Positions 1,900 through 10,064 of a stretch of 10,064 nt of DNA are shown piece after piece (within the stretch, counting starts at the first letter, position 1; the number at the start of each line of letters is the position of its first letter). A program made the translations under genes and the position numbers. The notes beneath the pieces are model-generated. The model was not told the origin of the DNA and ran no database searches. It was given only the letters and a program-made list of their open reading frames with translations. The stretch lies in sequence record KM389298.1, one strand, 5' to 3'. The stretch is from Escherichia phage CBA6.

Positions 1900-1982
1900 T
1901 CGGATTACTCCAGTTAGTTGTTTACAATGTTTCACTACAAGAGGACTACAGCTTACCTAACAAATATTATTGAATAAAGCGT

Positions 1983-2774
1983 TTATTTGCCGACGTTCAG
2001 CATTTTACCTGAGCCGGATCCGTCAACGATCAGAGTACATTTTCCACTATTGGCACATGATTGTAATACCATGTTATATTCATGTTGAAGATATTCAGGC
2101 GTCAGCGAAGTGGTCAGTTTCTGGTTCGCTTGGGCTTCTTGCTCGCGAATTTCAACGTTCTTTCTTGCCGTATCCAATCGTTTGTCCGCCATAACATTAT
2201 CACGGATAGACTGCTCAATAGAAGGATCCGTCAGCGCCTTTTTGACCAACACGCGTGTGATTGTGAACATGCCAGGCGCAGCAGTCTCTAATTGTTGCTG
2301 AGTGCGGTCTTTAATCATCTTCTCTAATTCAGCACGTTGGGTGTGAATTGTCATAGAATCAAGAGAAGAAACGGCGTCCATCGAAGAAGATGCTGCAGCA
2401 GTTTTAACTAGATTGAAACCCACCGCTATCGTGCCATCATCGAGTTCGGCGCTCTGGCCAGCAAATTTGGTATGGAACCACGGAACCTTTGCGACATTGG
2501 GTGTGTAATAAACATCCACATCCAAGTCTTCCAGAGTCAGGTTGTCTTTGGCCTTTGGCGTCATTTTAGTCAGACTCACAACGGCTTCTTTGGTCGTGTA
2601 AACATCCACGCTTGAAACAAAGCTGGTGTAGATCCCCGCTGTTACAGGGTTCATGTCTACTTCACCCCATTGGGTGCGAACGCCGACATTACCTTCATCG
2701 ATAACGCCACCACAACCAGAAAGTAGACTTGCAGCCAGAACCATAATTGCACCGAACACCAATTTCTTGAACAT
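1983..2774 (-). CDS. Lipoprotein with SPFH/band-7 (stomatin/prohibitin/HflKC-like) domain
   Basis: N-terminus MFKKLVFGAIMVLAASLLSGC has a signal peptide and lipobox (LSG-C). The body resembles SPFH domains (e.g. ...LEDLDVDVYYTP... and ...RVLVKKALTDPSIEQSIRDNVMADKRLDTARKNVEIREQEAQ...). ATG at 2774..2772 overlaps the upstream stop (TGATG). Confidence 0.6.
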   Translation of the reverse strand: MFKKLVFGAIMVLAASLLSGCGGVIDEGNVGVRTQWGEVDMNPVTAGIYTSFVSSVDVYTTKEAVVSLTKMTPKAKDNLTLEDLDVDVYYTPNVAKVPWFHTKFAGQSAELDDGTIAVGFNLVKTAAASSSMDAVSSLDSMTIHTQRAELEKMIKDRTQQQLETAAPGMFTITRVLVKKALTDPSIEQSIRDNVMADKRLDTARKNVEIREQEAQANQKLTTSLTPEYLQHEYNMVLQSCANSGKCTLIVDGSGSGKMLNVGK

Positions 2775-2983
2775 CAATGTACCCCTTCAAAAATGTAGAT
2801 ATATGCACCCAATGTGAGTGCGGTTATTGTAACCGAAGAAATCAGCAGCAGGAAAGTTACCCTCACCCGTTTGCGCCAACGTTTACTTCGGTAGATTTTA
2901 GTCTCTTTCAAGTATTTGAAAAAGAAAAATAAAATGAATGTTGAAATTACGAATATGAACAGGTAACGAATTAATCCGATCAT
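2774..2983 (-). CDS. Small hydrophobic membrane protein, 69 aa, about two predicted TM helices
   Basis: MIGLIRYLFIFVISTFILFFFFKYLK...VTFLLLISSVTITALTLGAYIYIF has two hydrophobic stretches separated by a basic loop. ATG at 2983..2981 lies one base after the stop of the upstream gene (TAAAATG); its stop overlaps the lipoprotein start. Confidence 0.55.
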   Translation of the reverse strand: MIGLIRYLFIFVISTFILFFFFKYLKETKIYRSKRWRKRVRVTFLLLISSVTITALTLGAYIYIFEGVH

Positions 2984-2984
2984 T

Positions 2985-3167
2985 TTACACCTGCGTTTTC
3001 CACAATCGCTTGATATTGTTGTTGAACTGGAACAAATCATAATCACCCAGAGCATTCTTCAGGCGCTGCGCTTCTTCAAATGTTGGAACCTCAACATGAA
3101 AAGCGATCCCAGGAACCTGGGGAATATGCCAAACGCGAAATTTAAGTTCAAACGGTTTATTCGACAT
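2985..3167 (-). CDS. Hypothetical protein, 60 aa
   Basis: ORF with ATG at 3167..3165 preceded by GGGAGA; overlaps the upstream gene by 11 nt and sits within the coupled gene string. No recognisable motif. Confidence 0.5.
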   Translation of the reverse strand: MSNKPFELKFRVWHIPQVPGIAFHVEVPTFEEAQRLKNALGDYDLFQFNNNIKRLWKTQV

Positions 3168-3444
3168 GGGGTTCTCCCTGAGACAGTATGGTTTTCATCT
3201 GTTCACGCGTGATAATTGTTTCAACAAGATTCTCGTCAATCATCATTTCGTTTAACAGTTCACAACCCAGCACGTGTGGTCGCGCCATATACGGCATGGC
3301 GTTGAGTTTTTCTTCTATGTCAAGAACGCGCTTGACAGTCAGACCCATAGAAGAAAAGGGAACAGGATAAAAGAATGAAATGATCTGATTATCCATCCCG
3401 TTTGAAAATCTCACTAATAATACATCACACCATACACCGGACAT
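3157..3444 (-). CDS. Hypothetical protein, 95 aa
   Basis: Start assigned to ATG 3444..3442, preceded by GGTGGAGGTG and located one base after the stop of the 223-aa gene (TAATATG). The longer 108-aa form in the track would overlap the upstream gene by 38 nt and lacks an SD. Confidence 0.55.
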   Translation of the reverse strand: MSGVWCDVLLVRFSNGMDNQIISFFYPVPFSSMGLTVKRVLDIEEKLNAMPYMARPHVLGCELLNEMMIDENLVETIITREQMKTILSQGEPHVE

Positions 3445-3445
3445 A

Positions 3446-4117
3446 TTACACCTCCACCGAGTGGGATTTAAGTAGTTCATCAATTCCTTTCTGCCCCATG
3501 TAAGAGAACGGGGTACGCTGGTAGAACGCCCACAGGACTAATTGAACGACGGCGCGGGAACGGCTTTCGGAACGCATCTCAAGTCCGCGAAAATGTGGTG
3601 ATTCGGCAGTCCATTGGATCTCTTCACCCAGGTCTTCGTTACAATCCACCGAAATGCGGAATTTATGACACAACGCGTCTACTTCTCCGTAAGCATCAGT
3701 GGAAACCCTGAGTTGTTCTGCATGCGCCCAAGAAGTCGTAACAATCCGTTCGCCCATCACTTTGTCAGAAACAAACCAATCAATCGATTGAGTGAAATCA
3801 TCGAAGTGATCAATACGATAGATAATCCCATGACCTTCCATACATTTCATGGCATGATAACGTGCGTCAATTTCATTATTGTGCATCGCGTTGAAGTCGA
3901 TGTAAACCCGCCTCGCCAACACAACGTCTTCTGGCTTCAAAGAGACCATCGTCGTGTCATTCATCGTGTAATGAAGGATGCCTGTACCACGCCCACAGTC
4001 ATGTTGGCAATACACGTATTTGTCCCCACCAACACGGGCATAAGCAATATAACAAGGTTCTGAGAATCGAAGGTTTCCTTGGTCTGCGCCAAGGATGATA
4101 GGATAAGATTTGTCCAT
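3446..4117 (-). CDS. Hypothetical protein, 223 aa, Cys/His-rich, function unknown
   Basis: Long ORF on the same strand as all neighbours, first gene after the 4140..4160 hairpin. No motif I can assign confidently. Confidence 0.7.
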   Translation of the reverse strand: MDKSYPIILGADQGNLRFSEPCYIAYARVGGDKYVYCQHDCGRGTGILHYTMNDTTMVSLKPEDVVLARRVYIDFNAMHNNEIDARYHAMKCMEGHGIIYRIDHFDDFTQSIDWFVSDKVMGERIVTTSWAHAEQLRVSTDAYGEVDALCHKFRISVDCNEDLGEEIQWTAESPHFRGLEMRSESRSRAVVQLVLWAFYQRTPFSYMGQKGIDELLKSHSVEV

Positions 4118-4130
4118 AATATATATCTCT

Positions 4131-4160
4131 CAAATAAAAGGCGGTTTAATAATAACCGCC
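4131..4160 (-). terminator. Rho-independent terminator between the 269-aa and 223-aa genes
   Basis: Minus-strand RNA: GGCGGTT-attatta-AACCGCC followed by TTTTATTTG. Strong only on the minus strand. Confidence 0.6.
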
Positions 4161-4174
4161 CGATTGTTATTGAA

Positions 4175-4984
4175 TTACTTTATATCACCAACATACATGT
4201 TCAGGGTTTCATCCCATTCTAAACGAACACGAATAGTGCCAGAATCGTTAGGGAAAGACAACTTACTAGACATATGTTTGTTGGCATACGTTCCGCTCTT
4301 GTTTACGGGATAATCGTTCCCTTCACTAATAGCAAATCGTTTAAAATTCCGGCTTACCATCATATTGATGTTCGGCCATGGTAGTTGTTCACGCAGAGTT
4401 TTACACAATATGATCTTTCCGTTGCATCGGAATGACACAAATAAATCATTTGGAGAAGAATAGCGTTGTTCTTGCGGACACAACTGTCGTATTGAAATAA
4501 ATTCGGACTCATCATTATTTTCTACCGGAGGCTTCATGGATTCTTCTCTTCTCTTTTCAACATATTGTTCGAAAGCCTTTTGACCCACAGGTGGGAGCGG
4601 ATTATTGGTGACAGGCATAACGGCTGGTTTGATTTCCGGCTTCTCCGCGGATGATGTGCGAGCGACTCGAAGTTTTTCCTGAGCCTCTAAAATCCTTTCT
4701 TGGCGGGTTTTGGGTTTAGTTTCAACCTTAGAGCTAAAATCGCAGACCGTAACCCAATCACCCTGATCATTGCGCTTGGCAACCAGAGTCAGTTTATAGA
4801 TGATGCCCTGCAGCTTACTTTCGCGCATAGTGTCTGCGAACCAGAAAGCACAACCCTGCTCGAACTTTTCAGCGAAGATGACGCGCCCGTCTTCGTGAAT
4901 CAGAATGACCTTTGCTTTGTTGGGCGCGAACACCTTATTCTTTTCAACGATCGATTCAGCGATCTTTTTAGTAATAATCATCAC
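4175..4984 (-). CDS. Hypothetical protein, about 269 aa, two regions joined by a Pro/Lys/Glu-rich linker
   Basis: Long ORF; SD AAGGAA lies 7 nt before GTG 4984..4982 (ATG at 4981 is an alternative start). The leader GAAAGGAAATACTTC resembles the leaders at 6889..6910 and 7448..7470. No recognisable catalytic motif. Confidence 0.65.
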   Translation of the reverse strand: MMIITKKIAESIVEKNKVFAPNKAKVILIHEDGRVIFAEKFEQGCAFWFADTMRESKLQGIIYKLTLVAKRNDQGDWVTVCDFSSKVETKPKTRQERILEAQEKLRVARTSSAEKPEIKPAVMPVTNNPLPPVGQKAFEQYVEKRREESMKPPVENNDESEFISIRQLCPQEQRYSSPNDLFVSFRCNGKIILCKTLREQLPWPNINMMVSRNFKRFAISEGNDYPVNKSGTYANKHMSSKLSFPNDSGTIRVRLEWDETLNMYVGDIK

Positions 4985-5031
4985 GAAGTATTTCCTTTCA
5001 GTTCAATGGAAGTTAAATTTTAACCTGAAAA

Positions 5032-5352
5032 TTATCTTTGATTTCCAACGAAATTAGTCGCTATTTCCCGACACATAGTCAGATCTTTGATCGTCTGTTT
5101 GCTATTGTCGGCAGCGGACTCCATCATTGGCAAATCTAAAGCATTCTCTATTTGATCCACGCTGTAGAGATCAAGGCGTTTCAACTCACCTTCATAATCT
5201 GATAAAAGGATGGATGTATCCTTATCGTCGGGGTGAAATTGTTGATAAGTAGACAACCAGGCCGCACATATATTCAATTTGCTGGCCGGAGTTGCCATAA
5301 CTTGGAATGATGCTAACATAGAAAAGAATAACAAGAATATTATGTTTCTCAT
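5032..5352 (-). CDS. Small exported (periplasmic/secreted) protein, 106 aa
   Basis: N-terminus MRNIIFLLFFSMLASFQVMA-TPAS is a typical Sec signal peptide with an AxA-like cleavage site. ATG 5352..5350 preceded by AAGGAG; overlaps the upstream stop as ATGA. Confidence 0.65.
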   Translation of the reverse strand: MRNIIFLLFFSMLASFQVMATPASKLNICAAWLSTYQQFHPDDKDTSILLSDYEGELKRLDLYSVDQIENALDLPMMESAADNSKQTIKDLTMCREIATNFVGNQR

Positions 5353-6038
5353 CTTTCGTTCTCCTTCATCATATTGTCGCAGTCAATCCGTGTTTGCTTG
5401 AGTTCACGCGAAAGCCTTGGGTCGTCTAGATTGACAGACAAATTAGTAGAAAGATCTTTCAATCCGTTCTGAACACGATCCTCATAGTAATAATCATTTT
5501 CTACGAGCCATGCTCTCAGCCCCAACGCACGTGTCCGCCATTCCTTTTTCAAACGTCGATCTGATTCTTGGTCGGCACTATATTCAAACACCTTGATGCA
5601 TTGGTTGCCATCATTGATCAGATCCAAATGTCGACGCCCGATTTGCACACCCTTCTGTAATGCCGGAGAGGGGAGAGAACGGCATTGCCTTACAGTCATA
5701 CGGCCTTGTGTGCCCATACGGCCAGTCATGATGAGATCGCCAGCCTCCATGCCTCCTCGGTTAAATTCATCGTCGTTCATATATCCTTTCAGGTTGAATG
5801 CGCCTTGCTTATATCGATTAAACTCGATACCAGCATTTACAACGGCATCTGTGACATTACCTGTGGCCCAGAGTTCAGAAAAGTTCTCTATGGAACCAGT
5901 TTTGTCTATAGCCACGGCTTGGGAGAACCCAGCACAGTAGGAAAGATCAGACCACAGTTTTTCACCTGTGGAATTCAGCTTGGCGGTGGCAGGAAGTGCC
6001 AGACCAGCCAGCACAACCGCGATGATTAAACGTTTCAT
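5349..6038 (-). CDS. Exported protein with cleavable signal peptide, about 229 aa
   Basis: Start assigned to ATG 6038..6036 (MKRLIIAVVLAGLALPATA-KLN), preceded by AAGGAG at 7-nt spacing. The 22-codon N-terminal extension in the track has no SD. Confidence 0.7.
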   Translation of the reverse strand: MKRLIIAVVLAGLALPATAKLNSTGEKLWSDLSYCAGFSQAVAIDKTGSIENFSELWATGNVTDAVVNAGIEFNRYKQGAFNLKGYMNDDEFNRGGMEAGDLIMTGRMGTQGRMTVRQCRSLPSPALQKGVQIGRRHLDLINDGNQCIKVFEYSADQESDRRLKKEWRTRALGLRAWLVENDYYYEDRVQNGLKDLSTNLSVNLDDPRLSRELKQTRIDCDNMMKENER

Positions 6039-6066
6039 GGTGATTCTCCTTATTTCATTGGATAAA

Positions 6067-6095
6067 ATGATAGGGCTGTCACCATGTTGAGTAAA
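6067..6095 (-). promoter_or_regulatory. Candidate sigma70-type promoter for the exported-protein gene pair
   Basis: Minus strand: -35 TTTACT (6095..6090), 17-bp spacer, -10 TATCAT (6072..6067), located in the 84-bp gap upstream of the 6038 start. Confidence 0.35.
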
Positions 6096-6122
6096 GGGTT
6101 TCAATAAACTATCGTATTCAGA

Positions 6123-6572
6123 TCAGTATCGACTATCACTGACCGTTCTGTATCGCACCCCTTGAAACTGTTTAGCGAGTTTAACAAATTCCATCGCTGG
6201 CAAATCAACTTTGTAGACCTTCATGCGCTGTTTGCCGTCCATGTTCAACGCAGCGACAAATCGGTGAGAACCGTCAACAACGTAATTGTCAGAAGACACC
6301 CAAACTCGACCCATGGGCTTCTTATTTCTGATCTGCTTCATAATCTTCCAGACCTTCATTTTATTGATTTCGTTCTGGGTAAGACGAAGCATTTTGATAG
6401 GCACTTGCGCAGCATCTATAGACACGCCGTTGTCTTCAAGATATTTGTGAAAATCTTCTTGTTTGTCTGCATCGATTTGCGGCATAGAAGAACGAGAAAG
6501 CCCGAGGTTCCCAACAGGAATCCTCAGGCCATTTATGATATTCATCCAGTCAATAAAGGATGTAAGGAACAT
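6123..6572 (-). CDS. ParB/Srx-fold (ParB-like nuclease / sulfiredoxin superfamily) domain protein, 149 aa
   Basis: Segment ...MLRLTQNEINKMKVWKIMKQIRNKKPMGRVWVSSDNYVVDGSHRFVAALNMDGKQRMKVYKV matches the ParB/Srx pattern (hydrophobic strand, then DG-x-HR-x-x-A, then hydrophobic strand). ATG 6572..6570 preceded by GAGGTG. Confidence 0.5.
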   Translation of the reverse strand: MFLTSFIDWMNIINGLRIPVGNLGLSRSSMPQIDADKQEDFHKYLEDNGVSIDAAQVPIKMLRLTQNEINKMKVWKIMKQIRNKKPMGRVWVSSDNYVVDGSHRFVAALNMDGKQRMKVYKVDLPAMEFVKLAKQFQGVRYRTVSDSRY

Positions 6573-6609
6573 GACACACCTCGGGATATAGGGTTATCCC
6601 TTAGTTAGT

Positions 6610-6888
6610 TCATTCGGACTTAAACAACAATTCGCGAACAGAAGTCCCAACGATATTCTGGGTGTTCAACAAACGAGTTAAATCATCCATGTCATATGCT
6701 GAATTGGTGATATGACGCAAGATAATCGCCAACATTCCCTCCAGCGCTCTCCGATTGTTATTCTCTTCAATGTCAAACTTAATTTCAACAAATCGAGATA
6801 GCATTCTGGATTGAGCATGAGTTTCGTTGGTTTTGCTCTGTATAATATCTTTGATTTCCGAACGAGCAATACTTCTTTGATCTGTCAT
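6610..6888 (-). CDS. Hypothetical protein, 92 aa, starting MTDQ
   Basis: ORF with ATG 6888..6886 preceded by AAGGAA. Its leader and first four codons are near-identical to those of the 6941..7447 gene. Confidence 0.6.
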   Translation of the reverse strand: MTDQRSIARSEIKDIIQSKTNETHAQSRMLSRFVEIKFDIEENNNRRALEGMLAIILRHITNSAYDMDDLTRLLNTQNIVGTSVRELLFKSE

Positions 6889-6946
6889 GATATAGTTCCT
6901 TCATTTCAAATGGGCGGGGCAAAGATACCCCGCCGTGGGTTTATAG
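6877..6946 (-). repeat. Copy A of a ~70-bp regulatory cassette: TATAAA box, GC-rich stem-loop, CATTTGAAATGAAGGAA leader, ATG ACA GAT CAA
   Basis: Aligned by eye to 7436..7505 at roughly 80% identity. Stem-loop GGCGGGG-n8-CCCCGCC at 6913..6934. Confidence 0.6.
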
Positions 6947-7447
6947 GGTAATAAGTGATACGGTAAAAACCATCGTCCCATCTGTTGTCATTTTTCTTGA
7001 AACTGGGAAGACGCGAGGCTGGCAGAATATCCATTCTTTCTCCATGGACGCCAAGTCCAGCATATCCATTTCTGATTCATCGTCTTTGTTCACAAATTTT
7101 TCTAGAGAACCAAAGACATTAAGCCCCTCTGGGAGTCCGTTTCGATGTTTGTAACAAATGCGAGCAACAGCTCTGGTTCCATACGATTTAGAAAATTGTT
7201 TGGCCACATGCTTCAGTTCGCTGAAACTAAGACAAGAATCCCATGTCTGAAACATGTCTCCTCGTTCAAACATCATCTCCAAACGCGCAACGTCCTCTTT
7301 AGGCAACCCGCGATAAAGTGTGGTCATCTGCGGTTCGCGTAATTCTTGCACCAGACCACGGATGGCAGGGGAAACAGTGCCAGGGCGCATGATGTGGGAC
7401 TTATCATGGACGAGGTAAAATAAATCTTGAATTTGTTGATCGGTCAT
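6941..7447 (-). CDS. Candidate mono-ADP-ribosyltransferase (R-S-ExE class), 168 aa
   Basis: Three motifs in the order and approximate spacing of R-S-E ADP-ribosyltransferases: 'TLYRG' (aromatic-Arg), 'LSFSE' (S-x-S) and 'EKEWIF' (E-x-E followed by hydrophobics). ATG 7447..7445 preceded by AAGGAA. Assignment is from motifs only. Confidence 0.45.
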   Translation of the reverse strand: MTDQQIQDLFYLVHDKSHIMRPGTVSPAIRGLVQELREPQMTTLYRGLPKEDVARLEMMFERGDMFQTWDSCLSFSELKHVAKQFSKSYGTRAVARICYKHRNGLPEGLNVFGSLEKFVNKDDESEMDMLDLASMEKEWIFCQPRVFPVSRKMTTDGTMVFTVSLITL

Positions 7448-7505
7448 GATGTATTTCCTTCATTTCAAATAGGCGGGGTAATCATACCCCACCCTAAGTT
7501 ATAGA
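7436..7505 (-). repeat. Copy B of the ~70-bp regulatory cassette (TATAAC box, stem-loop, shared leader, ATG ACC GAT CAA)
   Basis: Stem-loop GGTGGGGTA-tgat-TACCCCGCC in minus-strand RNA (plus-strand 7472..7493). Identity to copy A covers leader, SD, start codon and codons 2-4. Confidence 0.6.
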
Positions 7506-7506
7506 A

Positions 7507-7746
7507 TTAACTGATGTGCTTCAGAAGAGCGAAGAGGATCGCGGCCTTGGCTTTCACCTTTCCGACGACGCCTGTTTCGACATCGACTTCTTCGGCAACC
7601 CAATCTTTTCCCTTCTTGCTGATGATAACATCGCGGCGCTGGGCATATACTTCTTTGGTCGCATACACACGACGGAACCCTTTAGCGCGGAGCAAGCCCC
7701 AATTACGATCAATCTCCACTGAAGTTTCTACTATTTTGTTCTTCAT
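7507..7746 (-). CDS. Hypothetical small basic protein, 79 aa
   Basis: ORF with ATG 7746..7744 preceded by AAAGGTAAG; lies downstream of the promoter candidate at 7798..7826. No recognisable motif. Confidence 0.55.
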   Translation of the reverse strand: MKNKIVETSVEIDRNWGLLRAKGFRRVYATKEVYAQRRDVIISKKGKDWVAEEVDVETGVVGKVKAKAAILFALLKHIS

Positions 7747-7797
7747 GATATAATCTTACCTTTCAACCTGGTGAACCCATCGTTCGCCAGTTATTGA

Positions 7798-7826
7798 ATA
7801 ATACGCATTTGCCTTATAGAAGTAAA
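7798..7826 (-). promoter_or_regulatory. Candidate sigma70-type early promoter
   Basis: Minus strand: -35 (G)TTTACT at 7826..7821, exactly 17-bp spacer, -10 TATTAT at 7803..7798; sits between a terminator and the 7746 start. Confidence 0.4.
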
Positions 7827-7830
7827 CCCC

Positions 7831-7861
7831 TAAAAGTAAAAATCCCCAACGTTTGTTGGGG
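7831..7861 (-). terminator. Rho-independent terminator downstream of the ACP-like gene
   Basis: Minus-strand RNA: CCCCAAC-aaac-GTTGGGG followed by ATTTTTACTTTT. Confidence 0.6.
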
Positions 7862-7869
7862 ATCTTCAG

Positions 7870-8196
7870 TTACTTGCGCAGGGCAACCACGTATTCGGCA
7901 AGTTCACCCATGGTCGGGTCGTCGCCTTTACCGCCCAGCCAGCCATCAGAGATCTCGACATTGAACTCTTCTTCTAGTTCCATGACGATTTCGATGGCAT
8001 CAAGATCGTCGCCGCCGAGGTCTTTCTTGGTGCGGAGGCCAGCCAGTTTATCCAGGGCGTCATTCATAATCACTTCCGCGTCGACGATGCCTTTGATGCT
8101 GCTCTTGTCTTCGTCACTGACTTCCAGGTTCAGATTGTCAGTGGCGTACTGAGCCAGGTGACGCATTACTTCAACATAAGTTGGTTTGTTTGACAT
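7870..8196 (-). CDS. Acyl carrier protein (ACP)-like protein with Asp in place of the phosphopantetheine-attachment Ser, about 108 aa
   Basis: Core ...KKDLGGDDLDAIEIVMELEEEFNVEISD... aligns with canonical ACP helix II (E. coli ...[27 protein letters not shown]...), but the conserved DSL Ser is Asp (codon GAT at 8015..8013, checked on the DNA). Start taken as ATG 8196..8194; ATG 8202..8200 is an alternative. Confidence 0.7.
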   Translation of the reverse strand: MSNKPTYVEVMRHLAQYATDNLNLEVSDEDKSSIKGIVDAEVIMNDALDKLAGLRTKKDLGGDDLDAIEIVMELEEEFNVEISDGWLGGKGDDPTMGELAEYVVALRK

Positions 8197-8215
8197 AAGC
8201 ATATCTCAAAATGAA

Positions 8216-8231
8216 GGCGGGTTTCCCCGCC
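8216..8231 (-). terminator. Stem-loop between the large upstream gene and the ACP-like gene (weak terminator or RNA processing/stability element)
   Basis: GGCGGG-gaaa-CCCGCC followed on the minus strand by TTCATTTTGAG. Same stem composition and YATTTGA tail as the other intergenic hairpins. Confidence 0.4.
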
Positions 8232-8239
8232 AGTTGAAT

Positions 8240-10064
8240 TTAGATTTTGACTTCTTTTTCAGACAGTTCGGCAGTGACGGTGTATTTCACCCCATCAACT
8301 TCCACATCCATAGTGGATTCTTCCAAATCCAGGTCGGTAAACCAACCATGGCCTGCAACAATCCCATAAACTACCTTGGACAGCGTTTTGTTCAGGGCGC
8401 GGACTTCGTTAATGGCTGCTTTTGCTGCATCACCAATCCAACTTTCGATCAGCTTTTTCTGAGTCTCTTCCGGTACGCTGGTGATCATCGGCGATTTAAC
8501 AAACGCATTGTATTCAGCCAGGGCATTAGCGATCAGCTGATCAGCGACATTCAGTTTTTTACCGTCCGTCTGTTTTTTGATAACAGACGCGATGCTCGGC
8601 AGTGAAGATGCGCCTTTGATTTTCACATTCAATTCACGACTCATATAGACATCGGTTGATTCTACAGAAGAAGTCTTCGGTGAAAATCCATAGTCGCGAA
8701 TGCCGTTTGCTGACAGGAAATCAGCCGCTTCTTTGCCATATTTTGAAGCCAGACCCGTAGCGTTGCCTTTTCCAACCAGTTCATCACGGTAGAATTTCAG
8801 AACTTTCTGTTTTGCCTTCAATGCTTCACGGCGCACATTGTCTGCAAAGAATTCAGCAGCACTGATATTCTTTGTCATGGCGCGGTTAACCATTGGGACA
8901 CTTTCCAGATTTACAATGAAGACTTCCGGCCCACCAAACACATGAACACCCATGGCAGTCAAATCCTGTGCCACCTTAGCCCGAACAATCGGAGAATCTG
9001 CAGTGATAGGCATTGTTTTCAGGTTGATGATACCATCCTTGACAATGGTGTAATTGCGATAACGCCATGTATCCAGCTCTTCAGGAAGTTCATATTTCTT
9101 CTGTACAAACTCGGGCACAACAACCGTTCCGTGTTGAACTGTCTGCACACTGATGTTAGGACGTTCTGAATTATAGACCAAATTGCTGATCGGGACAATC
9201 CCTTTATCATCTGCTGGATTGAATTCCGGCGTCCAATCTTCGTGCTCGGCCAGTTTGAGCGCCAGGGCTTTACGCTCTTCTTTAGAAGTCGCATTCGCAA
9301 TCTCTTCGGCCAACTTGTCTTCGGTGTCGTCAACTTTTTGTATAGTACCGCGCCCAATGCTCTTGTAAGAGAATAGCGGATGCTTGGTGACGATAGAGAC
9401 ATCTGCTTCAGCCAAATACGTCAGAACATCAACAATGGTGGTGGCGTCTTCAGCCGGAACCATATTATAATCGATGCCATCAACTCCTCGCAGAGATTCG
9501 TCTACGATAGCCTGAGTCAGATCGACTTTGATGTTGGAGTAATCCTGCTTGGTGAAACAGTTGCTGTATTGTTTGATGAAGCGGACGTCACCCGTTTTCT
9601 TCAGCGCAGCCCAAACCAAATCTGCGTCCATGGTATACACGCCGTAAAATGCCAGCACGTATGCCGCTTGGATGTCTGCCAGATTATCCAGCTGGTCGAT
9701 CATGTTGGGGTTTACAACCCACAGCTGAGAAACGCTTTCAGGGATGCTGACGTGGCCAATAGGGTGCTCTTCATCAGGATGCACGGCTAAAACAGTCGCC
9801 ACGCCATTTTCAACATAAATGGCATGGGTGTAAACCAGGGGAACATCGACCACCACTTTCGGTGAAGAAGTTTTTAGCACGTTTTCCAATTCGGTCTGAT
9901 ATTCATTCTGGCCTTCAGCGAATACGTGGGTCGCACCAGAACGTTCTGCCATTAGCGCCAGCAGTTCGCGATTACAATACCAACCGTATTCGATGAAGGT
10001 AATGTTATCAAACGCTTTGGGCAGTACTTCAGCGGCATCCAGGATTTCATTAGAACGCCAGCAG
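8240..10064 (-). CDS. Large hypothetical protein (at least 570 aa in window, probably longer); N-terminus likely beyond the right edge
   Basis: ORF 8240..9952 in the track; the same frame stays open with protein-like sequence (…SNEILDAAEVLPKAFDNITFIEYGWYCNRELLAL-MAERSG…) from 9953 to 10064, and no SD precedes ATG 9952. No Walker A, polymerase, ligase or other catalytic motif recognised. Confidence 0.6.
   Translation of the reverse strand, partial: CWRSNEILDAAEVLPKAFDNITFIEYGWYCNRELLALMAERSGATHVFAEGQNEYQTELENVLKTSSPKVVVDVPLVYTHAIYVENGVATVLAVHPDEEHPIGHVSIPESVSQLWVVNPNMIDQLDNLADIQAAYVLAFYGVYTMDADLVWAALKKTGDVRFIKQYSNCFTKQDYSNIKVDLTQAIVDESLRGVDGIDYNMVPAEDATTIVDVLTYLAEADVSIVTKHPLFSYKSIGRGTIQKVDDTEDKLAEEIANATSKEERKALALKLAEHEDWTPEFNPADDKGIVPISNLVYNSERPNISVQTVQHGTVVVPEFVQKKYELPEELDTWRYRNYTIVKDGIINLKTMPITADSPIVRAKVAQDLTAMGVHVFGGPEVFIVNLESVPMVNRAMTKNISAAEFFADNVRREALKAKQKVLKFYRDELVGKGNATGLASKYGKEAADFLSANGIRDYGFSPKTSSVESTDVYMSRELNVKIKGASSLPSIASVIKKQTDGKKLNVADQLIANALAEYNAFVKSPMITSVPEETQKKLIESWIGDAAKAAINEVRALNKTLSKVVYGIVAGHGWFTDLDLEESTMDVEVDGVKYTVTAELSEKEVKI

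What the first reader, a model, noticed from the sequence alone, without database searches (positions are those of the whole stretch)
6877..7505. Duplicated ~70-bp promoter / stem-loop / leader cassette that includes the first four codons
Two segments (6877..6946 and 7436..7505) are about 80% identical and each spans a TATAA box, a GC-rich stem-loop, the leader CATTTGAAATGAAGGAA-TA-ATC and ATG AC(A/C) GAT CAA. A degenerate third copy of the leader precedes the 4984 start, and the hairpin plus YATTTGA tail recurs at 4131..4160 and 8216..8231. This resembles the promoter-early stem-loop cassettes described in hyperplastic regions of T4-type phage genomes, which are thought to drive modular gene shuffling. 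If so, the genes they flank are recently acquired cargo. In copy A the TATAAA box overlaps the ART stop codon and a TTTACC -35-like hexamer lies 16 bp upstream inside the ART coding sequence.
Basis: partly seen in the sequence, partly recalled or inferred. Interest (0 to 1): 0.55.

Follow-up and report, generated by a model that had tools for sequence, protein, structure and literature searches.

The report
Repeated regulatory cassette flanking a swappable phage gene
Two copies of a roughly 65-base intergenic cassette (box, GC hairpin, leader and start codon) bracket an ADP-ribosyltransferase-like gene in a ViI/CBA120-type phage, and related phages show that genes are inserted, deleted and replaced exactly at this cassette, much like the PeSL cassettes of T4-type phages.

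Summary
Window 6877-6941 and 7436-7500 are a 65-nt direct repeat, 83% identical and 559 bp apart. The window is a Kuttervirus (Ackermannviridae) with its genes on the minus strand. Each copy reads: upstream stop codon, TCTATAAC-type box, 9-10 bp GC hairpin, YATTTGAAATGAAGGAA leader, ATGACNGATCAA.

A whole close genome (SeF6a) holds only these two near-identical copies. The copy after the conserved 79-aa gene is almost invariant in three genera (Kuttervirus, Limestonevirus, Taipeivirus) plus unassigned Aglimvirinae phages.

The slot behind it holds the ART-like gene (66 of 271 records), denV (100 records), a lipoprotein-like gene, or nothing. Phage 38 lacks exactly 559 bp and carries a hybrid cassette. 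Phage ZQ1 has the same ART+hairpin module in a different background, again flanked by cassette copies. Cassette-bounded gene shuffling is therefore well supported.

TCWATAAM-N11-TATKAT recurs 5 times in the genome, against roughly 0.2 extrapolated from the window's chance rate. All five are intergenic and on the gene strand, and in four the TATKAT sits in a hairpin loop. This suggests a compact terminator-promoter-leader cassette like PeSL/PmSL. Promoter and terminator activity are untested.

The parts
7436..7509 (-). Cassette copy B, running from the stop codon of the 79-aa gene to the fourth codon of the ART-like gene.
   Evidence: Repeat D1. Model R1 hit E=5e-17 in SeF6a. Nearly invariant in three genera plus unassigned Aglimvirinae phages.
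6877..6946 (-). Cassette copy A, running from the stop codon of the ART-like gene to the fourth codon of the 92-aa gene.
   Evidence: Repeat D1. Model R1 hit E=5e-12. In every genome examined, a second hairpin-bearing copy accompanies only the window-type ART allele.
7471..7494 (-). Hairpin B: GGGTGGGGTA-tgat-TACCCCGCCT, a 10-bp stem including G-U pairs.
   Evidence: MFE -21.9 kcal/mol, z -3.5 on the gene strand vs -15.4 on the antisense strand. 100% of cells paired in 9 sequences; all variation is one-sided to G-U.
6913..6934 (-). Hairpin A: GGCGGGGTA-tctt-TGCCCCGCC, a 9-bp stem.
   Evidence: MFE -19.7 kcal/mol, z -2.8. Weak T tail, CATTTGAA.
7498..7505 (-). It is a member of the intergenic box family TC[AT]ATAA[ACT].
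   Evidence: In SeF6a 1-50 kb, 12 of 21 gene-strand hits lie in the 5.2% of DNA that is intergenic. Conserved outside coding sequence across genera; Magnus has TCAATAAC.
7481..7486 (-). TATGAT, a -10-like hexamer in the loop of hairpin B, 11 nt downstream of the box.
   Evidence: Pattern TCWATAAM-N11-TATKAT: 2 hits in the window vs 0.01 expected; 5 in the SeF6a genome, all intergenic and on the gene strand. The loop is invariant in B copies.
7448..7470 (-). Leader B: ATTTGAAATGAAGGAAATACATC, with SD AAGGAA at 7460-7455.
   Evidence: The leader family TTGAAA..AGGAA..CTAYATC-ATG has 14 hits at E<=10 in SeF6a (11 at E<0.1), all on the + strand, many of them training sequences.
6889..6911 (-). Leader A: ATTTGAAATGAAGGAACTATATC, with SD AAGGAA at 6901-6896.
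   Evidence: Homology with denV-type genomes resumes at 6903, inside this leader.
6941..7447 (-). Cargo gene of 168 aa between the two copies, ART-like (PHROG 832, 'RNA polymerase ADP-ribosylase').
   Evidence: Present in 66 of 271 related records. Absent or replaced in the others.
6610..6888 (-). 92-aa gene downstream of copy A (PHROG 4458, unknown function). It starts MTDQ, like the ART-like gene.
   Evidence: Not a paralogue of the ART-like gene: BLASTP finds no alignment at E<=100.
7507..7746 (-). Conserved 79-aa gene upstream of copy B (PHROG 804).
   Evidence: Present before the cassette in every relative examined.
7798..7826 (-). Early-type sigma-70 promoter TTTACT-N17-TATTAT upstream of the 79-aa gene. 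It probably drives read-through transcription into cassette B.
   Evidence: Belongs to the TTTACTTC promoter-like family of the SeF6a genome.
4139..4173 (-). Divergent relative of the cassette: TCAATAAC-N11-TATTAT, with the TATTAT in the loop of hairpin GGGCGGT/ACCGCC. It is followed by TTTTATTTGAGAG, an SD and an ATG.
   Evidence: Model R1 hit E=0.036 at the SeF6a counterpart.
6962..6967 (-). It lies inside ART coding sequence, 16 nt upstream of TATAAA.
   Evidence: Sequence. It matches the phage's own early -35 (TTTACT) at 5 of 6 positions, but it is coding, lies outside the repeat, and has no counterpart in copy B.

Best explanation
The element is a compact composite intergenic cassette of Ackermannviridae phages. 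It resembles the PeSL/PmSL promoter-terminator cassettes of T4-type phages, and it does two things.

(1) Regulation (inferred). In transcripts coming from the early-type promoter upstream of the 79-aa gene, the GC hairpin forms in the mRNA and acts as an attenuator or 3'-end stabiliser. Its T tail is weaker than in the phage's canonical terminators. The leader that follows (TTGAAA...AAGGAA...CTAYATC-ATG) is the phage's standard early-gene translation initiation region. The DNA of the same hairpin probably also carries a promoter for the next gene: a TTC(A/T)ATAA(A/C) box at about -31 to -24, and a TAT(T/G)AT -10 hexamer in the hairpin loop. Each cargo gene would then be a self-contained expression unit.

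(2) Evolution (shown by comparison). Because the same ~65 nt precede different genes, the cassette serves as a homology patch for the phage's recombination system. An ART-like gene plus a second cassette copy was inserted in register. This created the direct repeat, which can in turn delete the gene precisely.

My estimates by step: recombination-linker role about 0.8; hairpin functional as sense-strand RNA about 0.8; promoter with its -10 in the loop about 0.45.
For: The repeat is real, and SeF6a holds only two near-identical copies.

Copy B is conserved from stop codon to ATG in Kuttervirus, Limestonevirus, Taipeivirus and Aglimvirinae phages. It is single-copy in 14 IMG/VR contigs, all 152-160 kb.

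The slot behind copy B varies:
- ART-like gene in 66 of 271 records, denV in 100.
- A lipoprotein-like gene in YX22, Marshall and Magnus; nothing in ECML-4, phage 38 and allotria.

Breakpoints fall in the cassette:
- Against the denV type, homology ends at 7442 and resumes at 6903. Both positions are inside cassette copies.
- Phage 38 is shorter by exactly 559 bp, the repeat spacing. Its single cassette is B-type up to ...ATACATCATGAC and A-type from there on.
- ZQ1, from another subfamily, has the same ART allele plus an A-type hairpin inserted in front of the lipoprotein-like gene, again flanked by cassette repeats.

Among the genomes examined, the leader variant ATGAAGGAA occurs only in window-type cassettes (window, CBA120, phage 38, PhiSH19). 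Other lineages have TGCAGGAA, TTGCAGGAA or TTCAGGAA. This suggests exchange between the two copies.

Hairpin:
- All nine stem pairs are kept in 9 sequences. Four pairs vary, always to G-U, which pairs only on the gene strand.
- Folding is stronger on the gene strand.
- The stems are strong (-16 to -18 kcal/mol), but only 3-4 of the first 8 tail bases are T, against 6 in the terminators at 8231 and 4161.

Promoter reading:
- TCWATAAM-N11-TATKAT has 2 hits in the window vs 0.01 expected.
- It has 5 hits in the SeF6a genome, all intergenic and on the gene strand. Four have the TATKAT in the loop of otherwise dissimilar hairpins.
- The box itself is about 10-fold enriched in intergenic DNA, on the gene strand only.
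- The loop TATGAT is invariant in B copies.

[quoted passage not shown] PmSLs have a Mot box plus a -10 (PMC2839356; PMC4122927).
Against: - No transcript 5' or 3' ends are available. I found no Kuttervirus transcript-mapping study in the library.
- No sigma-70-like -35 lies 17-18 nt upstream of the loop hexamer (TTAATT or TAATTC). Any promoter would be weak or would need an activator.
- The five box-N11-TATKAT sites are partly paralogous (M1 and M2 are about 80% alike in their 5' halves), so the fixed spacing could be inherited rather than selected.
- Copy A has a 12-nt gap and TATCTT. In ZQ1, copy A has the loop reversed (TAATCA). The A copies therefore do not keep the putative -10.
- Only two near-identical copies exist per genome, unlike the many PeSLs of RB49.
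- The phage 38 crossover lies in a 7-nt identity block rather than in the longest one, so the direction of the event (deletion vs insertion) is not settled.
- Single-cassette genomes carry several cassette variants, which may be ancestral rather than products of deletion.
Confidence: 0.55

Rival explanations
1. A sigma-70-type early promoter lies upstream of the hairpin, with TATAA(A/C) as the -10 and the -35 inside the upstream coding sequence. Transcription starts at the foot of the hairpin, which then caps the 5' end of the mRNA as a stabiliser.
For: - Copy A has TTTACC-N16-TATAAA. This is close to the phage's own early-type promoters, TTTACT-N16/17-TATAAT.
- Elsewhere in SeF6a and Magnus, a -10-like hexamer is followed by a hairpin and then an xTTTGAA leader: SeF6a 20149-20225 and 25517-25623, and Magnus L012 1196-1275. 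A hairpin in the 5' UTR therefore does occur in this family.
Against: - TATAAC/TATAAA lacks the -7 T in every variant, and Magnus has CAATAA.
- Copy B offers only TTCTGA as a -35.
- The -35 of copy A is coding sequence and lies outside the repeat.
- The promoter scan reported neither site.
- The TATAA is part of the box TTC(A/T)ATAA(A/C). In the phage's clear early-type promoters this box sits in the spacer, not at -10.
Confidence: 0.15
2. An ordinary intercistronic attenuator hairpin plus ribosome-binding site, with no promoter and no special role in recombination. The duplication is the scar of a single historical insertion of the ART-like gene, and the variable slot merely reflects general mosaicism of non-essential phage genes.
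For: - Hairpin-plus-RBS intergenic regions are common in this window.
- There are only two close copies per genome.
- The genes all run in one direction behind a good promoter at 7826-7798, so no internal promoter is strictly required.
Against: - Breakpoints of several different architectures fall inside the cassette.
- The same ART+hairpin module occurs in two different backgrounds, each time in register.
- The box, the N11 spacing and the TATKAT are kept in hairpins with unrelated stems.
- The loop of copy B is invariant across genera, which a plain terminator does not require.
Confidence: 0.25
3. Tandem duplication of a gene together with its upstream region. Under this reading the ART-like gene and the 92-aa gene are diverged paralogues that still share their 5' ends.
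For: Both proteins start MTDQ, and the repeat includes the first four codons.
Against: - BLASTP finds no alignment between the two proteins, even at E<=100.
- They fall in different PHROG families, 832 and 4458.
- Similarity stops after codon 4.
- The 92-aa gene occurs with the same start in genomes that lack the ART-like gene.
Confidence: 0.02

Closest known systems
PeSL (promoter-early stem-loop) cassettes of T4-type phages RB49/phi1, PST/T4 and nt-1/KVP40 (Arbiol et al. 2010, PMC2839356; Comeau et al. 2014, PMC4122927)
   Same: - The same parts in the same order: upstream stop codon in AT-rich sequence, promoter-like motif, G-tract/C-tract stem-loop (in PeSLs often overlapping the -10), SD and ATG.
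- Located between small non-essential genes.
- Flanks insertions, deletions and replacements between close relatives.
- Direct repeats that can excise the gene between them.
   Different: - Different virus family (Ackermannviridae).
- No sequence homology was tested or claimed.
- No sigma-70 consensus -35.
- About 65 nt rather than about 100.
- Two near-identical copies plus roughly 3-5 divergent relatives per genome, rather than dozens.
- One copy is locus-fixed and conserved across genera.
- Promoter and terminator activities and mini-circles were shown for RB49 but not here.
PmSL (promoter-middle stem-loop) elements of Vibrio phage nt-1 (PMC4122927), and T4 MotA-dependent middle promoters (Mot box near -30 plus a -10; the geometry is from my own knowledge of T4)
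   Same: A bipartite layout: a conserved box about 11-12 bp upstream of a TATTAT-like -10, with no -35 hexamer, combined with a stem-loop, SD and ATG.
   Different: The box is TTC(A/T)ATAA(A/C), not TGCTT. I did not look for a MotA/AsiA-like activator, and none is known to me in these phages. Activity is untested.
Promoter-coupled terminators in bacteria (Fletcher et al., bioRxiv 10.64898/2026.08.19.745784)
   Same: The same DNA stretch encodes a terminator stem-loop and contributes to the promoter of the next transcription unit.
   Different: There, the stem-loop DNA serves as the -35 and the -10 lies just after the T tract. Here, the -10-like hexamer lies in the loop, and the ATG follows only about 25 nt after the stem.
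Intrinsic (rho-independent) terminators
   Same: A GC-rich stem of 9-10 bp with a tetraloop, directly after a stop codon and on the gene strand.
   Different: The T tract is sub-canonical: 3-4 T in the first 8 bases. The terminator scan did not report these hairpins, and their tail scores are lower than those of the neighbouring terminators.

Membership tests
PeSL (Arbiol 2010; Comeau 2014) | Stop codon of the upstream gene, in an AT-rich stretch, at the 5' end of the element. | tested here: met
   The TAA of the 79-aa gene (7509-7507) and the TAA of the ART-like gene (6943-6941) open the two copies.
PeSL (Arbiol 2010; Comeau 2014) | Early promoter with sigma-70-like -35 and -10 boxes about 17 bp apart. 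| tested here: inconclusive
   The promoter scan found no site in either copy. The candidates are TTAATT-N18-TATGAT (copy B, -10 in the loop) and TTTACC-N16-TATAAA (copy A only, inside coding sequence). Box-N11-TATKAT is statistically enriched, but no activity data exist.
PeSL (Arbiol 2010; Comeau 2014) | Stable stem-loop, typically poly-G/poly-C, positioned within or next to the promoter and acting as a terminator or attenuator. | tested here: met
   GGGG...CCCC stems, -16 to -18 kcal/mol, fully conserved pairing with G-U changes specific to the gene strand. The structure is met. Terminator activity itself was not tested, and the T tail is weak.
PeSL (Arbiol 2010; Comeau 2014) | Shine-Dalgarno sequence and start codon of the downstream gene at the 3' end. 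| tested here: met
   AAGGAA lies 7 nt before the ATG in both copies.
PeSL (Arbiol 2010; Comeau 2014) | Many copies per genome, concentrated in hyperplastic regions. | tested here: not met
   Model R1 finds two copies at E<1e-11 in the 157-kb SeF6a genome and nothing else below E=0.02. Only about 5 sites share the box-N11-TATKAT layout. The leader model gives 14 hits at E<=10.
PeSL (Arbiol 2010; Comeau 2014) | Association with indels and gene replacements between closely related phages. | tested here: met
   The slot holds the ART-like gene, denV, a lipoprotein-like gene or nothing, with breakpoints in the cassette. There is an exact 559-bp indel with a hybrid cassette, and the ART module appears in a second background.
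PeSL (Arbiol 2010; Comeau 2014) | Formation of mini-circles by recombination between neighbouring cassettes. | not testable with these tools
   Requires inverse PCR on infected cells or virions. The expected circle is 559 bp.
Intrinsic terminator | GC-rich hairpin immediately followed by a run of T (at least 5 of 8). | tested here: not met
   Tails are TATTTGAA (4 of 8) and CATTTGAA (3 of 8). Not reported by the scan, which did report 8231-8216 and 4161-4139.
T4-type late promoter | TATAAATA at -10. | tested here: not met
   The cassette has TATAACTT (window B) and TATAAACC (window A). Upstream regions of structural genes in SeF6a instead show CTAAATA-like motifs.

The most novel reading that the evidence does not exclude
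Ackermannviridae phages use a family-specific bipartite promoter. It consists of a TTC(A/T)ATAA(A/C) box at about -31 to -24 and a TAT(T/G)AT -10 hexamer exactly 11 bp downstream. It has no -35 hexamer, so it probably depends on a phage-encoded activator, in the manner of T4 MotA. The -10 is built into the loop of the terminator hairpin of the preceding gene. This would give ~60-nt terminator-promoter-leader insulators that make each small gene an autonomous, portable expression unit and double as recombination linkers for gene exchange between genera.
Probability: 0.35. Interest if true: 0.65.

Novelty: new variant of a known kind. Interest (0 to 1): 0.5.

Why it matters
Ackermannviridae (ViI, CBA120, Det7, LIMEstone and relatives) are widely used for biocontrol and are being engineered, yet their regulatory elements are essentially undescribed. 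A 2024 family review contains no mention of promoters, terminators or transcripts, and no paper in the library links PeSLs to this family.

If the cassette works as proposed, three things follow:
- It extends the PeSL idea of portable promoter-terminator linkers driving modular gene exchange beyond the T4-like phages.
- It offers a natural, defined safe-insertion site with built-in expression signals for engineering these phages.
- It provides a tractable pair of natural variants (ART-type, denV-type and empty-slot phages) in which cassette-mediated recombination can be measured directly.

The box-N11-(-10) motif also gives a concrete candidate for a new promoter class, testable by 5'-end mapping.

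Tried and rejected
- **Chance or low-complexity repeat:** rejected.
- **Gene paralogy** between the ART-like gene and the 92-aa gene: rejected.
- **Known RNA family:** the Rfam scan of 6500-8300 at E<=1 gave only a spurious snoRNA hit.
- **T4-type late promoter (TATAAATA):** does not fit. Upstream regions of structural genes in SeF6a show CTAAATA-like motifs.
- **Fletcher-type geometry** (-10 downstream of the T tract): there is no room and no TAnnnT before the ATG (one search compared with the sequence).
- **d'Aubenton-Carafa-style terminator score:** computed with modern energy parameters, so it is uncalibrated. Even accepted terminators score near or below zero. I used only the relative tail scores.
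- **Leader model R2:** it did not recover the SeF6a counterpart of the leader before 4984, so the 'third copy' is not statistically supported.
- **Literature:** searches for Kuttervirus transcript mapping found nothing usable.
- **Technical limit:** only some fetched loci reached the Python sandbox. Genome-wide motif statistics in Python cover SeF6a 1-50 kb only. The rest of the genome was covered with the DNA search and the covariance models.
- **Not run:** protein-database searches, structure prediction and metagenome scans. The question concerns a DNA/RNA element, and the annotated phage collection answered it.
Full report
**Identity of the window.** The 10-kb window matches Kuttervirus genomes (Ackermannviridae; ViI/CBA120/Det7 group) at 92-96% over nearly its whole length. 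SeF6a and Mutine are the closest. All genes from about 1900 to 9952 run on the minus strand. The order, read 5'->3' on that strand, is:
- a vWA-like protein;
- an acyl carrier protein (7870-8202);
- a conserved 79-aa protein (7507-7746, PHROG 804);
- a 168-aa protein called 'RNA polymerase ADP-ribosylase' by PHROG 832 only (6941-7447);
- a 92-aa protein (6610-6888, PHROG 4458);
- a 149-aa protein (6123-6572).

**The observation.** The repeat finder reports 6877-6941 vs 7436-7500 as a 65-nt gap-free direct repeat, 83% identical and 559 bp apart. The next longest direct repeat in the window is 29 nt. On the gene strand each copy begins at the stop codon of the upstream gene. It then contains (C/T)CTATAA(A/C), a GC hairpin, (C/T)ATTTGAAATGAAGGAA, seven more bases and ATGAC(A/C)GATCAA. 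The hairpins at 8231-8216 and 4161-4139 exist and are terminator-like. The 'third leader' before 4984 is only a loose resemblance and was not recovered by a leader model in SeF6a.

**The hairpin.**
- Both hairpins fold better on the gene strand: -21.9 kcal/mol (z -3.5) and -19.7 (z -2.8), against -15.4 and -18.7 on the antisense strand.
- In nine cassette sequences, all nine stem pairs are standard in every sequence (Kuttervirus, Limestonevirus, Taipeivirus and Aglimvirinae phages).
- Four pairs vary, each on one side only and always to G-U. Such changes keep pairing only in an RNA of the gene strand. There are no double compensatory changes, so the support is modest.
- The stems are strong, but only 3-4 of the 8 bases after the stem are T. 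The two neighbouring canonical terminators have 6, and the terminator scan did not report the cassette hairpins.
- I infer an attenuator or 3'-end-protecting hairpin rather than an efficient terminator.

**Copy number.** A covariance model of the cassette was run over the complete SeF6a genome, which is 99.3% identical to the window in this region. It finds the two copies at E=5e-17 and 5e-12 and nothing else below E=0.02. An exact-pattern scan of IMG/VR for the B hairpin plus tail finds 14 contigs, all 152-160 kb, with one match each. This is therefore not a dispersed multi-copy repeat. Copy B is an old element fixed behind the 79-aa gene, and copy A is a lineage-specific second copy.

**Comparative genomics: the decisive part.** The region occurs in 271 phage records. 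Copy B is present and nearly invariant in all architectures examined. What follows it differs:

| Phage(s) | Order after the 79-aa gene |
|---|---|
| window, SeF6a, CBA120 | cassette B, ART-like gene, cassette A, 92-aa gene |
| phage 38, allotria, UTK0004, ECML-4 | cassette, then the 92-aa gene directly |
| moki, D5lw, many others | cassette, denV, a 12-nt spacer, 92-aa gene |
| barely, BRM 13312, PhiSH19 | cassette, a divergent ART allele, no second hairpin |
| YX22, Marshall, Magnus | cassette, a lipoprotein-like gene |
| Dickeya phage phiD3 | cassette, denV, lipoprotein-like gene |

The ART interior is found in 66 records and denV in 100.

- Against the denV type, homology with the window ends at 7442, two codons into the ART-like gene. 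It resumes at 6903, inside the leader of copy A.
- Phage 38 is shorter than the window by exactly 559 bp. Its single cassette matches copy B at every diagnostic position up to ATACATCATGAC and matches copy A from the next base on.
- ZQ1 belongs to a different subfamily and resembles YX22 in this region. It carries the window-type ART allele followed by an A-type hairpin, inserted in front of the lipoprotein-like gene. The module is again flanked by ...ATTTGAAA on both sides.

So the same ART-plus-hairpin module sits, in register, in two different backgrounds. Among the genomes examined, the leader variant ATGAAGGAA is seen only in window-type cassettes, which fits exchange between the two copies. 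The ART-like and 92-aa proteins are unrelated, so gene duplication does not explain the repeat. Together these results show that the cassette marks the boundaries of gene gain, loss and replacement. The mechanism is inferred: homologous or microhomology-mediated recombination, or circle integration as proposed for PeSLs. The direction of individual events cannot be read from the sequences.

It fits copy A (TTTACC-N16-TATAAA). That -35, however, lies in ART coding sequence outside the repeat. Copy B has only TTCTGA. No variant has a T at the last position of the hexamer, and the scan reports neither site.

The SeF6a genome has a small family of clear early-type sigma-70 promoter-like sequences, (G)TTTACTTCT(TCAATAA|ATAA)...TATAAT. 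One of them lies upstream of the 79-aa gene (window 7826-7798). Each is followed by the same leader as in the cassette.

The cassette's TATAA is part of the box TTC(A/T)ATAA(A/C). In SeF6a 1-50 kb, 12 of the 21 gene-strand occurrences of this box fall in the 5.2% of DNA that is intergenic. On the opposite strand the figure is 2 of 11.

The composite TCWATAAM-N11-TATKAT occurs twice in the window against 0.01 expected; none of 200 shuffles reached 2. It occurs five times in the SeF6a genome, always intergenic and on the gene strand. In four of the five (copy B, the 4161 hairpin, and two sites in the other early gene cluster), the TATKAT hexamer is in the loop of a GC hairpin. The stems of these hairpins differ, and a T-rich tail, an SD and an ATG follow. 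The loop TATGAT is invariant in all B copies.

This matches the PeSL class in which the stem-loop overlaps the -10, and the box-plus-(-10) layout of PmSLs (PMC2839356, PMC4122927).

Against it: there is no sigma-70-like -35; the sites are partly paralogous; and the A copies (TATCTT with a 12-nt gap in the window, TAATCA in ZQ1) do not keep the hexamer. I put promoter function at about 0.45.

**Comparison with known systems.** The element shares with PeSLs its parts, its position between small accessory genes, and its association with indels and replacements. It fails the many-copies criterion, and its promoter and terminator activities are untested. It is therefore best described as a PeSL/PmSL-like variant in another phage family, not as a member by homology. 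I found no paper in the library that connects PeSLs with Ackermannviridae, and a 2024 review of the family does not mention promoters or terminators. A 2026 preprint describes promoter-coupled terminators in bacteria with a different geometry.

**Verdict.** The feature is real and non-random. Cassette-bounded shuffling of the ART-like gene is well supported. Interest is moderate: a known kind of element in a family where it had not been described, with an unusually clean set of natural variants and a testable new promoter-like motif.

Noticed in passing
SeF6a L013 12610, 12632, 19404, 20149, 25530, 29391, 32344, 32636, 36067, 38400, 49382, 49414; window 7505-7498, 4173-4166, about 7790 and about 1960 (minus strand): The box TC[AT]ATAA[ACT] (often TTCTTCAATAA) is strongly enriched in intergenic DNA, on the gene strand only. 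It occurs in the spacer of early-type promoters, directly in front of terminator hairpins, and after stop codons. Its function is unknown.
   Followed up: partly
SeF6a L013 12623, 25517, 32315, 49405; L014 12772, 32039/32055; L015 27591; window 7826-7798: A family of about 7 early-type promoter-like sequences, (G)TTTACTTCT...N16-17...TATAAT. Each is followed 45-55 nt later by the same leader, TTGAAA..AGGAA..CTAYATC-ATG. Two of them (L013 12.6 kb and 49.4 kb) share further sequence (CATAAGCAG.AC.ACAC), so they form a second repeated cassette pair. L014 32036-32067 has the -35 part duplicated in tandem.
   Followed up: partly
SeF6a L015 14945-14875 and 17860-17785 (minus strand): Two paralogous intergenic elements: GTTCTTCAATAAA, then a hairpin with TATTAT in the loop, then a T run, an SD and an ATG. 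Their 5' halves are about 80% alike, and the 3' arms differ in a compensating way (GGGGGATAGGG/CTCTATCCTC vs GGGGAATGGG/CCCGTTCCCC).
   Followed up: partly
L008 (Dickeya phage phiD3) 1856-2611 vs window 7746-7442 and L004 (moki) denV: The 79-aa gene, the cassette and denV are about 91% identical between Dickeya Limestonevirus phages and Salmonella Kuttervirus phages. The LIMEstone paper gives about 59% genome-wide DNA similarity to ViI (PMC3296691). This suggests recent transfer of the module between genera.
   Followed up: partly
L035 (phage ZQ1) about 1060-1085: The loop of the A-type hairpin in ZQ1 (GGGGTAATCATACCCC) is the exact reverse complement of the B loop (GGGGTATGATTACCCC), on an identical stem. 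This is an apparent loop inversion within a palindrome.
   Followed up: no
window 7447-7368 vs L006, L017 and L020: The two ART alleles (window type and 'barely' type) are about 71% identical overall but about 90% identical over the first 80 nt. Homology with 'barely' stops at 7368. This is a recombination breakpoint inside the gene.
   Followed up: partly
window 6612-6573 (hairpin 6600-6583, minus strand): The short intergenic region before the 149-aa gene, (A)CTAACTAAGGGATAACCCTATATCCCGAGGTG, is kept almost unchanged in Kuttervirus, YX22 and Dickeya phages, although the gene in front of it differs. It may carry a late-promoter-like CTAAG motif plus a hairpin.
   Followed up: no
SeF6a L013 7692, 8911, 9842 and 48121 upstream regions: Upstream regions of structural and lysis genes show CTAAATA(T/C) or CTAAGTAA rather than the T4 late consensus TATAAATA. 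This is probably the late promoter motif of this family.
   Followed up: no
L005 (ECML-4) 956-1434; L009 956-1434; L017 828-1234; L012 1275-1732: Some relatives carry an extra small gene directly upstream of the 79-aa gene, so the slot in front of that gene is variable too.
   Followed up: no
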